From IMG/VR virus record IMGVR_UViG_3300048576_000272, positions 1-24,125 of that record: a stretch of 24,125 nucleotides of DNA. One strand, written 5' to 3'. The position numbers and the translations under genes are program-made. Below the pieces are notes generated by a model. That model searched no databases. It was not told the origin of the DNA and worked only from the letters and a program-made list of their open reading frames with translations. Below are positions 1,314 through 12,473 of the stretch, one piece after another; the stretch's first letter is position 1; each line of letters opens with the position of its first letter. This stretch comes from a virus (Duplodnaviria; Caudoviricetes).

Positions 1314-1388
1314 AAAACCTGTAACTGGCTCATCTAATGGTATGAGCCCTTTAAGGAGCCCCAACAAATTGCAATGGAGGGAGGCAAC

Positions 1389-2324
1389 ATGACGGCTAAG
1401 CCCAAAAAGAAACCCAAAAGACTTCTGTACTTGCGTGCGTCTTTCAGCAAGCCGGATGACAAAGCCCCCTCGAGAACATTAGAAATTTATCTGCGCAAGG
1501 CATACAAATCATTGCCCAACGTTGAAGATAGGGTTGTTGAATATGCCGGGCAATCTTGGTTTGGAAATTGGTTCGAAACAGAAGAAGATTGCATCTTTTT
1601 TCAGTTCTCCGCGGCAACCCCAGGAGAGAATGCAACGATAGTTCCAACGAGTGGGTTGAAGGTTCCTACTATAGACCTTAAGCCGACTGCGCCCCCCAAA
1701 GACAGTGAATTCTCGGATGGAGACATTATTTGCTGTGTCAAGAATGATGATATTTTCGCATGTTGCTCACATCTACGTGATTCAGCGATTCGCCCTTACC
1801 TTCTGGCGTTATTTTCAGCTGTAGACATAGGGGATAGAACGAGGACGTTACAAATTGATCGTCCTGGTAATTTTGATAAAATCAGAATGATCAAAAGCGC
1901 TGGGGTGAAGAGTATCATACTCAATGCAGCTCTGGATTCCTCTGAATTTCAACGCCTCGACAAAATTAAGCCTAAAGGCTTCTTTCATAACCTTATACGG
2001 GATCTATCAATACGAGACAGGGGCCTAGTCGAAGCCGCCCGTGCGGCGGGGAGTATGTTCAAGGTGGGCATAACCGTCCCCAAAAAGGGACAAGTCGGAC
2101 CGCTAAAGTGGTTTGATGAGGTGGCAGAAGAGACTCTCGACGAGGGTATCCCTTACCGAATCGAAACGCGCGATGGAAAAGTGATTACTCCGGAAGAGAT
2201 CACTATTACTCGGCCAGAGCGTTTTGAAGCCTTTGGAAAGACAGTCTTCAGAAGTGAAGCGATGACAAAGCTTAGGGAGTTTAAAGATGATTTCCTTAAC
2301 CAAATCCCTGTCCGAAGGAAATGA
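1389..2324 (+). CDS. Accessory (moron) soluble protein, about 311 aa, RexA-like by size and layout; putative phage-exclusion sensor
   Basis: Markedly lower GC than flanks; GGAGGGAGG SD before ATG 1389 (ORF track starts at 1374); coupled to a downstream 4-TM gene. Confidence 0.6.
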   Translation: MTAKPKKKPKRLLYLRASFSKPDDKAPSRTLEIYLRKAYKSLPNVEDRVVEYAGQSWFGNWFETEEDCIFFQFSAATPGENATIVPTSGLKVPTIDLKPTAPPKDSEFSDGDIICCVKNDDIFACCSHLRDSAIRPYLLALFSAVDIGDRTRTLQIDRPGNFDKIRMIKSAGVKSIILNAALDSSEFQRLDKIKPKGFFHNLIRDLSIRDRGLVEAARAAGSMFKVGITVPKKGQVGPLKWFDEVAEETLDEGIPYRIETRDGKVITPEEITITRPERFEAFGKTVFRSEAMTKLREFKDDFLNQIPVRRK

Positions 2325-2820
2325 TGAGCGTAACTGGGGGCTAATCGGCTATCTTTTGTTGTGTACTGCGGCAAGCGGAGTTGCAACGTATTTTGTCCCG
2401 GCATATGTCGGGAGGATAAAAGATGTTGTTGCACTTGTGGCAACAATAATGCCAATATTGACTGGATTTACTATGGCCGTCATTGGGATTGTCGGTGGCC
2501 TAGACTCTGTTCTGTCATCATTCTCGTGGCAAAACCTTCAACTATATGAAGAATCATTCAACGCAAAAATTCGGCGGCAGGCCTACCTGTGCGTTCTGCA
2601 ATTGATATCTTTGTGTCTAGCGCTCATTCTCACAGCAATAGGTGACAAGGATATTGCTTATATAACCATTAGCCGCGTTTTTGTATTCTTTGCATGTGTC
2701 TCCTTGCTGACGTCTTTCACTTTCCCACTCTCCTTGCATGCAATTCATAAAGAGCGCTACGAGCTGTTGATGTGTGAACGCGGTGCCCCCTCGATTGAGC
2801 CGCCCTCGACGCCCTCTTGA
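2287..2820 (+). CDS. Accessory 4-TM membrane protein, 177 aa (RexB-like putative effector)
   Basis: AGGGAG SD at 2274-2279; four hydrophobic segments (about aa 17-39, 46-70, 99-118, 123-148); overlaps the upstream gene by 38 nt; low GC. Confidence 0.65.
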   Translation: MISLTKSLSEGNDERNWGLIGYLLLCTAASGVATYFVPAYVGRIKDVVALVATIMPILTGFTMAVIGIVGGLDSVLSSFSWQNLQLYEESFNAKIRRQAYLCVLQLISLCLALILTAIGDKDIAYITISRVFVFFACVSLLTSFTFPLSLHAIHKERYELLMCERGAPSIEPPSTPS

Positions 2821-8997: not shown

Positions 8998-9261
8998 ATG
9001 GAATTGAAGCTCGAAGATCTCACCAAGGACGAGCTGATCTTGCTCATTCGGCAGCTCCCGGTGCTCGGCCCAAGTCAGCGGGACATGCTGCGCATTCGTT
9101 GGGATACTTTGACGAAAAAAGGGCATGCCTTGCTTGGCGAGAGCATCAAGGCCGGGGAGGCCGGAGACATGAAGCTAGCGGACCGGCTGTATGATGAATC
9201 TGCGCGGGTGAGGAAGAAGGCAGACGCTGTATTCGCGGAGATGTGTCCATGCCCGAAGTGA
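8998..9261 (+). CDS. Small helical hypothetical protein inserted between portal and MuF
   Basis: 87-aa ORF filling the gap and overlapping the MuF start; more A/T at third codon positions than its neighbours. Confidence 0.65.
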   Translation: MELKLEDLTKDELILLIRQLPVLGPSQRDMLRIRWDTLTKKGHALLGESIKAGEAGDMKLADRLYDESARVRKKADAVFAEMCPCPK

Positions 9262-10484
9262 ACCTCGCCTATGCCTGCGGCCTGCCGCCGGAGAAGGCCA
9301 TCGCCTACTTTGAGGCCAAGGGCTACGCGTTCTCGTGGGACTGGCGCGAGGTGTGGCAGGAGGCCCACGCCAAGGCCTTCACCGTTGCGGGGGTGCTCAA
9401 AAGCGACGTGTTGCAGGACATCCGCGCGGGCGTTCAAACGGCGTTGAAGGAGGGCAAAACGCTCTCCCAATTCGAGCGCGAGCTGGAGCCCCTGCTGAAA
9501 AAACGCGGCTGGCTGGGCAAGGGCGAGGTGCGCAACGCCGCCACCGGCGAGGTGGAGGGCCGCCGCCTGGGGCCGCACCGCCTGACCACCATTTACCGCA
9601 CCAACATGCAGACCAGCTACATGGCCGGGCGCTACAAGAGTTTCATGGAGAACGCGGCGGCCCGCCCCTATTGGGAGTACGTGGCCGTCATGGACAGCCG
9701 CACCAGGCCGGAACACGCCGCCCTGAACGGCCTGGTCTTCCCCGCCGGCGATCCTTTCTGGAATTCGTTTTGGCCGCCAAACGGCTACCGCTGCCGCTGT
9801 CGGGTGACGGCGCTGACCGCGCGGGAGGCCAAGGCCGAGGGTGTGCGCCTGGTATCGTCCGAGGGGCGCATCACCGAGAAGGAAGTGCCGGTCGGTCGCT
9901 CGCGTCCTGGTCAGCCCGCGCCCAAGGCCAAGGTGGCCAGCTTCGAGCTGCGGCCCGGCCTGTCCATCTCGCCGGACCCCGGCTTCAGCTACAACCCGGG
10001 CAAGGCGGCCTGGCCCGGCTTGCAGGACGTGCTGGCCCGCAAGATGGAGGCCGCGCCGCAAGCCATCGCCTCCGGCCTGGCGCGCGGGCAGGCCGCCGGG
10101 CCGGGCTTCCGGGAGTTCCACGCCAAGCCCTCCGGCAACTGGCCCATCGCGCAGATCCCGCCGGAGGACGCCAAGGCCATCGGCTCAAAGACCGGCACGG
10201 TGCTGCTTTCGGCGGACACCATGCTAAAGCAGAAGGATCACCACCCGGAACTGACCCCGGAGGATTACGCATTGGTGCAGGCGGCCGTGGACAAGGGCGA
10301 GAGAATCCAACAGACAGCGCACAAGCTGGCCTACGTCTTTGATAGTGCCGACGGCGCGGTTACTGTGGTGAAGGCAACCCAGAGCGGCGACAAAGTGTAT
10401 CTGGCCAGCCTGTGGAAGCTTGGAAAGGACGAAAAGGACCGTTCGCGCATCGTTGCCCAGCTGCGAAAGAAGGTCCAGAAATGA
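9249..10484 (+). CDS. MuF (gp30) minor head protein with C-terminal extension resembling a phage BECR (PBECR-type) nuclease
   Basis: LPPEKAIAYF..KG, RLTTIYRTNMQTSY.AGRY, DSRTRPEH, WPPNGYRCRCRV, PDPGFSYNPG; about 140-aa tail with LSADT..KQ..HHPEL..EDY and VVKAT..G.K.YL.S; GGAG SD before ATG 9249. Confidence 0.88.
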   Translation: MPEVNLAYACGLPPEKAIAYFEAKGYAFSWDWREVWQEAHAKAFTVAGVLKSDVLQDIRAGVQTALKEGKTLSQFERELEPLLKKRGWLGKGEVRNAATGEVEGRRLGPHRLTTIYRTNMQTSYMAGRYKSFMENAAARPYWEYVAVMDSRTRPEHAALNGLVFPAGDPFWNSFWPPNGYRCRCRVTALTAREAKAEGVRLVSSEGRITEKEVPVGRSRPGQPAPKAKVASFELRPGLSISPDPGFSYNPGKAAWPGLQDVLARKMEAAPQAIASGLARGQAAGPGFREFHAKPSGNWPIAQIPPEDAKAIGSKTGTVLLSADTMLKQKDHHPELTPEDYALVQAAVDKGERIQQTAHKLAYVFDSADGAVTVVKATQSGDKVYLASLWKLGKDEKDRSRIVAQLRKKVQK

Positions 10485-10622
10485 CGAAGGCCGCACCAAG
10501 TGCGACCTTCAATCTAACGGGCGGTGGGGCCTACCTTCCGCTTGCGCGGGAACCCCACATGGCGCTCCGACGTTTCCGCCGTGCTACGGCAGGTAGAGTG
10601 TCACCGTGTCGCGCCCGTTATG
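10485..10622 (-). ncRNA. Structured non-coding RNA (multi-stem, pseudoknotted) convergent with MuF
   Basis: Closing stem 10515-10523/10612-10620; stem 10524-10529/10553-10558; GCAA and GAAA tetraloop hairpins on the minus strand; pseudoknot CUACCU/AGGUAG; upstream sigma70 promoter. Confidence 0.7.
10486..10510 (-). terminator. 3' hairpin or terminator of the antisense RNA (possibly bidirectional)
   Basis: Minus strand GAAGGUCGCAC-UUG-GUGCGGCCUUC, 11 bp with one G-U pair (a C-A mismatch on plus), followed by GUCAUUUCU (weak U tract). Confidence 0.55.
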
Positions 10623-10627
10623 ATAGC

Positions 10628-10656
10628 CATATAGGGCGGACGCAAAAGGATGTCAA
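10628..10656 (-). promoter_or_regulatory. Sigma70-type promoter driving the minus-strand RNA
   Basis: TTGACA (10656-10651), 17-nt spacer, TATATG (10633-10628); predicted +1 at about 10621, at the base of the RNA closing stem. Confidence 0.68.
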
Positions 10657-11169
10657 ATGATCGAAGCCCAGCTTGATTCCACGGAGATGCGGCGCGCACT
10701 GGAAATGCTGCGCGTGAGCTGCCTGGACGCCTCGCCGGTGATGCGCGTCATCGCGGGCGACATGGAGCGCGCGGTGGAAAAAAACTTCCGCAGCGAGGGC
10801 CGGCCGGCCTGGTTGGGGCTGGCCCCCGGCACCATCGCCGGGCGCATCAAAAGCGGCACTTGGCCGGGCAAGATTCTCCAGCGCACGGGGCAGTTGGCCA
10901 GCAGCATCGAGGCGCACTCCGACTCCACCAGCGCCACCGTGGGCACCAACCTGGCGTATGCGGCCATCCAGCAGTTCGGCGGCAGAACGCGTGCCCACAC
11001 CATCACCGCGCGCAAGGGCAAGGCCCTGGCCTTCGGCGGCATCTTCCGGCGCTCCGTCCGCCACCCCGGCTCCAACATCCCGGCCCGGCCGTTTTTGGCG
11101 CTGGACCGCGACGACGAGCGGCAGATTCAGGAGTCGGTGCTGCTGTTTCTGACGGGGCGGATCGGGTAA
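10657..11169 (+). CDS. Phage virion morphogenesis protein (Mu gpG/gp31-like)
   Basis: NF.SEGRP.W..L...T, KILQRTGQLASSI, VGTNLAYAAIQQFGG, IPARPFL motifs. Confidence 0.92.
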   Translation: MIEAQLDSTEMRRALEMLRVSCLDASPVMRVIAGDMERAVEKNFRSEGRPAWLGLAPGTIAGRIKSGTWPGKILQRTGQLASSIEAHSDSTSATVGTNLAYAAIQQFGGRTRAHTITARKGKALAFGGIFRRSVRHPGSNIPARPFLALDRDDERQIQESVLLFLTGRIG

Positions 11170-11273: not shown

Positions 11274-12473
11274 ATGTCCTGTTGTAAATGTGAAAAATAT
11301 GGATGGGACGAACCACAACCGGTTGTCTTCCATGCACCAAGGGGGAAGCAAAGGGGGTATTGTGTCTTTCATGCCCCTTCAAGGCAAAAAGGAATACCTG
11401 GTGACGAGTTTCAAGACATCGTACTCAAAACGATAGAAGAACATAGATCAAAATTTCAACATAATGATATAGAAATACTGTGCAACTTAAGCGGGACAAT
11501 ATTCCCATCGGACATACTATTCAGCACGCAGACTGTACCTCGCCATTTCCCCGGTATGAATTTTAGATATTGCATTTTTAAAGAGAATGTTAATTTTATT
11601 CATGCCTATTTCGATGACACAACATCCTTCAGTCATTCAAAGTTTCTAAAAAACGCAAACTTTAGTTCCGCAAAGTTTAAATGCAACGTAAGCTTTAATG
11701 GTACACTTTTTTGTCGTGTTTATTTTGACGCCACTCAGTTCAAGAAGCTTGCAATTTTTGAAAAATCTCACTTTTCTGACAACGCCTCTTTCTTTGCATG
11801 TGAAGGTGCTAGTGACTCAATTATTATTAACTCAGTTGACAAGAGTTCAATACAAAATATGTACTTTACGAGTAGAGAAGTCAATCTACTAGATTTCCAG
11901 CAATGTGTATTCCCATGTTTTTTACGACCAGAGGAAGCATTAAAGATTTTTCTTGCCGAAGAGCTATACCGTAGTCTAAAGCAAAAAGCCGCAATGAAGC
12001 ATAACTATGCGATGGTTTCAGAGTTTAACTACAAAGAAAATCTCATGCATTTTCATGGTTTGCTCCAAACTAAAAGAGAGAAATTATACCTGTCAATTAT
12101 TGAGAATGAAGAATCAAATAAAATTGGAAAAATTTTTTACTTCATACTCCTTGTGATAAAGACACCAAAGATACTGTTTACGATTGATTTTTGGTATTGG
12201 TTACTAAGCGGCTTTGGGGAAAGGGATCACCGGGCATTGTCTTGGCTCGTGTTACTGCTAATCTTGCCTCTGTTACTAAATGTCATCCTTCCGCAGATTG
12301 ATTCATTCCCTTGCAGCGACTTGATAAATTCAACTCTCAATTATATACCATTTACTAAAGAATTGCCGGGGCATAGTGGCTGGCTTCGTCTGGGGCAAGG
12401 TCTGAGCCAGCTACTCATTACCATTCAGGCCACCATTTACGCCTTCGCCCTCCGCAACCGCTTCAGGCGTTAG
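11274..12473 (+). CDS. Accessory pentapeptide-repeat protein with Cys/His-rich N-terminus and C-terminal TM segments
   Basis: AT-rich; GAGG SD before ATG 11274; repeats NFRYCIF/NFIHAYF/SFSHSKF/NFSSAKF/SFNGTLF/YFDATQF; YCVFH motif; LSGFGER..RAL.WL followed by TM helices. Confidence 0.8.
   Translation: MSCCKCEKYGWDEPQPVVFHAPRGKQRGYCVFHAPSRQKGIPGDEFQDIVLKTIEEHRSKFQHNDIEILCNLSGTIFPSDILFSTQTVPRHFPGMNFRYCIFKENVNFIHAYFDDTTSFSHSKFLKNANFSSAKFKCNVSFNGTLFCRVYFDATQFKKLAIFEKSHFSDNASFFACEGASDSIIINSVDKSSIQNMYFTSREVNLLDFQQCVFPCFLRPEEALKIFLAEELYRSLKQKAAMKHNYAMVSEFNYKENLMHFHGLLQTKREKLYLSIIENEESNKIGKIFYFILLVIKTPKILFTIDFWYWLLSGFGERDHRALSWLVLLLILPLLLNVILPQIDSFPCSDLINSTLNYIPFTKELPGHSGWLRLGQGLSQLLITIQATIYAFALRNRFRR

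What the first reader, a model, noticed from the sequence alone, without database searches (positions are those of the whole stretch)
10515..10620. Fold of the antisense RNA itself: compact multi-way junction with long-range pseudoknot
Seen in sequence: about 106 nt closed by a perfect 9-bp stem with two internal domains, each capped by a GNRA tetraloop. The single-stranded CUACCU of domain 1 is complementary to AGGUAG in the internal loop of domain 2. A competing GCCGU-AGC-ACGGC hairpin (10578-10590) could allow an alternative conformer. Inference: this is tertiary-structured RNA (ribozyme-like, tRNA/rRNA mimic or protein-binding scaffold), not a simple antisense. I cannot assign it to a named Rfam family.
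Basis: partly seen in the sequence, partly recalled or inferred. Interest (0 to 1): 0.75.

Follow-up and report, generated by a model that had tools for sequence, protein, structure and literature searches.

The report
Pseudoknotted RNA partner of phage toxin
A conserved, knotted ~100-base RNA gene, absent from the RNA family catalogue, sits tail-to-tail with a predicted RNA-cutting domain on a phage head protein in many Mu-like phages and travels with that domain, so it likely acts as an RNA antidote where such toxins normally have a protein one.

Summary
The fold is real and belongs to a widespread RNA family with no Rfam match. It is a four-way junction with a 5-bp loop-loop pseudoknot. The pseudoknot is Watson-Crick in 430 of 430 cells of 86 homologs and perfect in 34 of 40 held-out homologs found by a model that did not contain it. 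The GNRA loops and the competing hairpin are not conserved. The RNA lies on the minus strand behind a positionally conserved sigma-70-like promoter, tail-to-tail with the MuF head-protein gene, whose C-terminal domain has an invariant His and Lys and weak PBECR/RelE-like signals. RNA and domain form one cassette: RNA distance tracks the domain (partial rho 0.81), not MuF-N or gpG. MuF relatives lacking this domain lack the RNA (0 of 30). Stand-alone domain-plus-RNA pairs and orphan or tandem RNA copies also occur. Best reading (0.55): a protein-binding RNA antitoxin for a virion-borne RNase, working like type III toxin-antitoxin but not a member. Binding, toxicity and transcription are untested. 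An anonymous 2023 candidate may cover part of the motif.

The parts
10515..10620 (-). Structured core of the non-coding RNA: four-way junction P1/P2/P3/P5 plus optional P6 and a loop-loop pseudoknot
   Evidence: Covariation on 86 homologs, model R1 89 bits, held-out test
10586..10607 (-). P2 arm (10607-10603 with 10590-10586); its loop carries the 5' pseudoknot strand; most conserved part
   Evidence: Pairing kept in 40 of 40 held-out rows, 4 by one-sided change; part of that set was selected by a pattern containing P2
10592..10596 (-). Pseudoknot 5' strand (CUACC)
10531..10535 (-). Pseudoknot 3' strand (GGUAG), in the loop of P5
10564..10584 (-). P3 arm: conserved base with an A.A mismatch and a bulged G, variable tip (GAAA here)
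   Evidence: 7 of 8 pairs change on both sides, 84% cells paired; loop type variable
10524..10558 (-). P5 arm, running into P1 with no linker; holds optional P6 (10549-10538)
   Evidence: 97.8% cells paired, 5 of 7 pairs compensatory; P6 absent in 44 of 86
10628..10656 (-). Predicted sigma-70-type promoter: -35 at 10656-10651 (perfect consensus, between the gpG ribosome site and start codon on the other strand), 17-nt spacer, -10 at 10633-10628
   Evidence: Same position in 34 of 66 domain-linked homologs against 1 and 2 in controls; 24 of 97 score at least 9/12 against 1 reverse-complement and shuffle max 5. The strict scanner did not call it
10485..10511 (-). Terminator-like hairpin ending at the MuF stop codon
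   Evidence: 1 found, 0.7 expected by chance, so weak alone; similar hairpins in L004, L005, L007, L008, L010, L012
9243..10484 (+). MuF (gp30-like) minor head protein, 413 aa
   Evidence: Pfam Phage_Mu_F E 1.9e-26; PHROG 220 minor head protein and DNA pilot
10098..10484 (+). MuF C-terminal domain, predicted BECR/PBECR-like RNase; His334 (10242-10244), Lys377, Ser389
   Evidence: Invariant His and Lys in 43 neighbours; AlphaFold pLDDT 96; weak PBECR3/MuF_C, HigB/BrnT/RelE and viral MuF-C matches
10657..11169 (+). gpG-like virion morphogenesis gene, divergent flank (not co-varying with the RNA)
   Evidence: Pfam Phage_tail_S E 1e-25

Best explanation
The element is a separately promoted, pseudoknotted non-coding RNA gene that is inherited as one cassette with the C-terminal domain of the phage head protein MuF, and it likely binds and silences that predicted RNase as an RNA immunity factor. 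Shown by comparison: the fold, the strand, the tail-to-tail position, the cassette behaviour, and the lack of room for an immunity gene. Inferred: (1) host RNA polymerase makes the RNA from the minus-strand promoter, also in the lysogen, without reading into the lytic operon; (2) the RNA folds into a compact, roughly tRNA-like shape with the kissing helix as elbow and the conserved P2/junction bases as protein-contact face; (3) it blocks the His/Lys active site of the tail domain while MuF is made late in infection; (4) MuF enters the head and the next cell, where a cell already making a matching RNA would be protected and a naive one transiently poisoned; (5) orphan and tandem RNA copies would serve as spare immunity or counter-defence.
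For: Fold. Strand: G.U against A.C counts 43:7 in P3 and 88:2 in P5. Promoter. RNA-first: 53 of 76 loci with enough flank have the domain within 60 nt, always convergent, never on the same strand (11 short-flank loci dropped; the profile was built from such neighbours). MuF-first: 12 of 14 loci with the domain carry the RNA, 0 of 30 without it (some are near-duplicates or cut short). Domain-first in sampled genomes, seeds excluded: 11 of 21 loci carry it (3 of 3, 5 of 13, 3 of 5), where the RNA occurs in only 8 of 151 genomes. Cassette: n=24, rho RNA-domain 0.84, RNA-gpG 0.38, RNA-MuF-N 0.29; partial 0.81 (0 of 500 permutations), 0.09 and -0.10. Seven intact stand-alone 135-172 aa domains keep the RNA, so the link is to the domain, not the head. 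[quoted passage not shown]
Against: No binding, toxicity or transcription data; RNA-seq contigs were uninformative. The RNase call is weak: no Pfam hit over cut-off (6 of 43 PBECR3 at E<=0.05), no Foldseek PDB match at E<=0.001, profile comparison to PBECR2-type tails not significant (E 0.17), Atlas recognition under its threshold. 21 of 76 RNA copies have no domain nearby, and only 2 of 21 of those have the promoter. 10 of 21 domain-first loci have no match to the model. The RNA persists beside His-less domains (L095, L324). P6 shows 0 G.U against 5 A.C. Adjacency alone can explain joint transfer, though gpG is equally adjacent. Conservation across domains about 40% alike also fits a common fold with another job.
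Confidence: 0.55

Rival explanations
1. The RNA is a cofactor, cargo or dedicated substrate of the tail domain: an RNA-protein particle packed into the head and delivered with the DNA, in which the tRNA-like RNA positions, activates or is processed by the nuclease.
For: Same cassette evidence. Junction order matches a tRNA cloverleaf (1-nt link P2-P3, about 5-nt link P3-P5, none P5-P1). RNA is kept beside His-less domains. Iyer 2017 suggests RNA binding for the inactive MuF-C of Mu.
Against: No variable unpaired guide segment: the variable parts are paired. No tRNA call. A host-type promoter facing away from the late operon fits protection better than late packaging. Orphan copies have no partner in cis.
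Confidence: 0.17
2. Cis-antisense control (type I-like): the RNA pairs with the MuF-gpG part of the late transcript and triggers its decay, limiting leaky toxin expression; the fold only stabilises it.
For: Opposite strand, own promoter, fixed convergent geometry.
Against: The RNA covers neither the MuF start nor, as a rule, its coding region (gaps mostly 1-46 nt). Complementarity is automatic in cis and would not need a conserved pseudoknot, conserved junction bases, or the strict link between loop length and one P5 base (23 of 23 and 75 of 75). Orphan and tandem copies lie on the sense strand of other operons.
Confidence: 0.12
3. A self-cleaving or other catalytic RNA that was recruited next to these genes.
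For: Compact pseudoknotted fold, conserved junction bases, copies without the protein, one just after a tRNA gene (L093).
Against: No Rfam ribozyme match even at E<=10. The plus strand has an HDV-like helix order, but wobble counts and the promoter favour the minus strand. Co-variation with one protein domain is unexplained.
Confidence: 0.07
4. A structural RNA of head assembly, like phi29 pRNA (recalled): the kissing strands pair between molecules to make a ring at the portal.
For: Lies in the portal-MuF-gpG-protease module; covariation cannot tell intra- from intermolecular pairing.
Against: Absent from 30 of 30 MuF loci without this domain; tracks the domain, not MuF-N or gpG; present beside stand-alone domains.
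Confidence: 0.04

Closest known systems
Type III toxin-antitoxin systems (ToxIN; PMC8860590, passages)
   Same: Predicted RNase beside a pseudoknotted non-coding RNA, no protein antitoxin.
   Different: One ~100-nt four-way-junction RNA, not tandem repeats; downstream on the opposite strand with its own promoter, not upstream in one operon; toxin is BECR-like and mostly fused to a virion protein.
MuF polymorphic toxins (Jamet 2017, PMC5576092, passages)
   Same: MuF with a swappable C-terminal domain and a small linked gene directly behind it, in a temperate-phage head module.
   Different: The linked gene is an RNA on the opposite strand, not a small immunity ORF.
PBECR / MuF-C domains (Iyer 2017, PMC5512222, passages; bioRxiv 10.64898/2026.08.28.747851, passages)
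   Same: MuF fusion and solo forms; His in the first helix, late Ser/Thr.
   Different: Below every Pfam cut-off; 1,746 clusters at 50% identity match the profile. No RNA partner in the passages seen; no ncRNA terms in the preprint.
Anonymous candidates DNAVirus_1035, _615, _4683 (Fremin 2023, PMC10690425, supplement rows)
   Same: DNAVirus_1035 is 76 nt, lies within 25 bp of gpG-type genes in 33 cases, has opposite-strand partners and Desulfovibrionales/Rhodobacterales hosts.
   Different: Sequences could not be read, so identity is unverified; 2-3 covarying bases, no pseudoknot, partner or function in the rows seen.
Pseudo-ToxI of phage TE (PMC3475682, abstract)
   Same: Precedent for phages carrying extra antitoxin-like RNA copies without the toxin.
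   Different: Different RNA and toxin; here only inferred for the orphan and tandem copies.
tRNA cloverleaf and its mimics (recalled)
   Same: Four arms in the same order, last arm continuous with the closing stem, second and fourth loops in contact.
   Different: Loop contact is a 5-bp Watson-Crick helix; no CCA end, no conserved anticodon-type loop; not called by ARAGORN or Rfam.

Membership tests
Type III toxin-antitoxin (ToxIN-like) | Antitoxin is a tandem array of short repeats | tested here: not met
   Single copy beside the domain in aligned homologs; two-copy cases seen only without the domain
Type III toxin-antitoxin (ToxIN-like) | RNA upstream of the toxin in one operon, terminator between | tested here: not met
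   Convergent in 53 of 53 adjacent cases, none on the same strand
Type III toxin-antitoxin (ToxIN-like) | Antitoxin RNA is pseudoknotted | tested here: met
Type III toxin-antitoxin (ToxIN-like) | Toxin of a known type III family | tested here: not met
   No such Pfam or PDB sequence match; fold hits are HigB/BrnT/RelE, weak
Type III toxin-antitoxin (ToxIN-like) | RNA binds and inhibits the toxin directly | not testable with these tools
   Needs binding and rescue assays
MuF polymorphic toxin | MuF domain with variable C-terminal extension in a phage head module | tested here: met
MuF polymorphic toxin | Small immunity ORF directly downstream | tested here: not met
   172-nt gap holds promoter, RNA and terminator; many homologs leave 1-46 nt between stop and RNA. 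An 82-codon frame overlaps here; its conservation was not formally tested
PBECR RNase | Profile score over the Pfam cut-off | tested here: not met
   Best PBECR3 E 3.9e-5, below cut-off; 6 of 43
PBECR RNase | His in N-terminal helix, C-terminal Thr/Ser, helix plus strand meander | tested here: met
PBECR RNase | Significant structural match to a solved BECR nuclease | tested here: inconclusive
   Foldseek best E 0.018 HigB2, BrnT prob 0.91 at E 0.1; viral MuF-C models E 1e-4; the VIA-align search never ran
Known Rfam families (ribozymes, riboswitches, c4, tRNA) | Covariance model match | tested here: not met
   20 related loci gave only two true tRNAs
tRNA / tRNA-like | CCA end, T-loop consensus, ARAGORN call | tested here: not met

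The most novel reading that the evidence does not exclude
Temperate phages use a whole class of structured RNAs as immunity genes for virion-delivered BECR nucleases: each nuclease lineage has its own knotted RNA on the opposite strand (this family, a second double-pseudoknot class, and kissing-hairpin RNAs beside PBECR2 tails), and orphan copies are traded as counter-defence. This would be polymorphic-toxin immunity by RNA, with a tRNA-shaped inhibitor.
Probability: 0.4. Interest if true: 0.92.

Novelty: new variant of a known kind. Interest (0 to 1): 0.8.

Why it matters
In the papers read here, MuF toxins are credited with protein immunity genes, and ToxIN-type RNA antitoxins are repeat arrays upstream of their toxin. 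A single tertiary-folded RNA that guards a virion-borne nuclease would join the two fields and explain why many MuF tails have no immunity ORF. It would also give the predicted PBECR RNases a first partner. The pair is small (about 128 aa plus about 100 nt), has natural compensatory variants and stand-alone forms, and can be tested directly in a laboratory strain.

Tried and rejected
Rfam at gathering and at E<=10, ARAGORN: nothing. BLAST in annotated phages and plasmids: no RNA match, none for the stand-alone domain, one weak F-protein hit not followed. One DNA pattern was mistyped and found nothing. The loose genome pattern was mostly chance: 20 of 121 loci passed the model at 35 bits or more. 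RNA-seq for homolog L077: 16 RNA runs hold the region, but four laid runs were whole contigs with flat depth, no evidence on transcription. Motif-seeded locus searches with the domain alignments could not run. VIA-align structure search never ran, so the fold assignment rests on Foldseek. Profile comparison with PBECR2-type tails not significant; no solved relatives by sequence. A generic MFE-based pseudoknot test on other MuF-tail RNAs, with mononucleotide shuffles, supported only L029 of 25; those RNAs stay leads. Rejected: conserved conformational switch and conserved GNRA caps; plus-strand HDV-like reading; riboswitch (no same-strand gene follows in the domain-linked copies). Literature searches found no paper on this pairing; term searches in PMC11109978 and PMC5737381 main texts found no MuF mention (their supplements not seen). 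The library lacks most subscription papers, and the Fremin 2023 alignment files were unreadable. No complex prediction was sent (the tool does not take RNA partners).

Full report
Setting. The window is a Mu-like phage late region: terminase, portal, MuF (9243-10484), gpG (10657-11169), protease. The finding lies in the 172-nt gap between MuF and gpG. Rfam and ARAGORN find nothing. Single-strand folding is only mildly better than shuffles, so the window alone does not prove a structure.

The RNA family. Eight had no closing stem and were set aside as chance matches, and five mis-parsed rows were dropped, leaving 98. Anchored on positions only, the five bases before P2's 3' strand pair with the five before P5's 3' strand in 96 of 98 rows; 13 of 15 distinct combinations are perfect against a shuffle mean of 1.0. 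An 86-row alignment (near-duplicates and two long insertions left out) gave 95.1% of cells paired and 30 of 43 pairs with changes on both sides, against 38-44% for slid controls (one search had a mis-set P3). P1 ends were picked to pair and P2 was fixed by the pattern, so P3, P5 and the pseudoknot carry the evidence. A covariance model without the pseudoknot found 40 further copies: 34 pair 5/5 and 38 at least 4/5, with five new helix sequences; two misses are alignment shifts. The sixth pair, the GNRA caps, P6 and the competing hairpin are not conserved. Loop-2 linker length and the base before P5's 3' strand change together without exception (23 and 75 rows), which points to a fixed three-dimensional geometry.

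Strand and signals. Wobble counts favour the minus strand in P3 and P5, not in P6. A TTG..TA promoter pattern sits at a fixed distance before P1 in 34 of 66 domain-linked copies (controls 1 and 2) but in 2 of 21 orphans. In the window the -35 box is perfect and the predicted start falls at P1. A terminator-like hairpin follows, weak on its own. Transcription is not shown: the public RNA runs were contigs.

The partner. The convergent gene ends in a domain of about 125 aa with invariant His and Lys and a late Ser/Thr, 1,746 clusters strong at 50% identity. The model is confident (pLDDT 96; helix-rich start, then a strand meander). Its nearest named relatives are PBECR3 and MuF_C (below cut-off; Atlas 0.90-0.92 with low recognition), HigB/BrnT/RelE (not significant) and viral MuF-C models; a profile comparison with PBECR2-type tails failed. 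An RNase is therefore likely, not shown.

Association. RNA-first, 53 of 76 loci with at least 500 nt of flank have the domain within 60 nt, all convergent; 2 have it farther off; 21 lack it. Of the 53, 45 are MuF-size and 8 short (7 intact stand-alone genes, 1 fragment). MuF-first, 12 of 14 loci with the domain have the RNA and 0 of 30 without it do. Domain-first in three genome samples, 11 of 21 non-seed loci have it, one about 400 nt away. Of the 10 misses, two carry a second RNA class with a like P5 loop by eye, several have other closed stems behind a promoter-like site, and some are split, cut short or His-less. In 24 loci with all four parts, RNA distance follows the domain and not the two flanking structural genes, which follow each other (rho 0.77). 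These loci are related and the test is not tree-aware. Named hosts in the genome scan include Alpha- and Betaproteobacteria and Desulfobacterota records. Orphan copies occur in varied phage and chromosomal settings, two cases in tandem, one behind a tRNA gene.

Mechanism. MuF toxins are thought to ride in the head, and most are followed by a small immunity ORF (PMC5576092, passages). Here that slot holds an RNA gene with a host-type promoter facing away from the lytic operon, which would let it be made in the lysogen and straight after infection. I take direct inhibition of the nuclease as most likely (0.55), then cofactor or cargo (0.17), cis-antisense (0.12), ribozyme (0.07), pRNA-like (0.04). 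Every functional step is inferred.

Known systems and novelty. It would work like type III toxin-antitoxin (PMC8860590, passages) but fails membership on repeats, gene order and toxin family. PBECR papers (passages) name no RNA partner in what I saw. Nine topic searches found no description; the library omits most subscription papers. Anonymous candidates in Fremin 2023 (supplement rows) may cover part of the motif; their sequences were unreadable.

Verdict. Observation confirmed with corrections; an uncatalogued, well-supported RNA family tied to a predicted phage RNase domain; new variant of a known kind; interest 0.8.

Noticed in passing
L019:3735-3860, L306 and L327 behind the domain gene (opposite strand): A second RNA class beside the same domain family: like P5 loop and pseudoknot strand, different core, and a second pseudoknot with a compensatory change, by eye.
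   Followed up: partly
L023, L029, L030, L031, L038, L041, L304, L305, L328-L336, behind the tail gene: MuF or solo proteins with PBECR2-type tails also have an opposite-strand gap with promoter-like sites (10 of 18, against 0 of 12 short MuF at that distance) and two-hairpin kissing loops by eye; the generic test backed only L029.
   Followed up: partly
L211:2990-3217; L301:1341-1606: Two tandem RNA copies with different pseudoknot sequences and no nuclease domain nearby; L211 is on the sense strand before a Mu-like protease gene.
   Followed up: partly
L093:2446-2616: Orphan RNA begins a few bases after the 3' end of a tRNA gene on the same strand.
   Followed up: no
L296:1359-1560: RNA flanked by two similar gpG-like starts with only a scrap of the MuF end between them, like a deletion remnant.
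   Followed up: no
L082:986-2537: This RNA family lies 155 nt from a MuF with a true PBECR2 tail, with another structured stretch between.
   Followed up: no
window 11274-12473 (+): Low-GC (39% against 65%) pentapeptide-repeat gene with predicted membrane end inserted between gpG and the protease; looks like an accessory gene.
   Followed up: no
window 1374-2820 (+): Two-gene low-GC (46%) insert between the late activator and the lysis genes; only an unnamed PHROG matches the first.
   Followed up: no
window 8998-9261 (+): 87-aa ORF without family match between portal and MuF, overlapping the MuF start.
   Followed up: no
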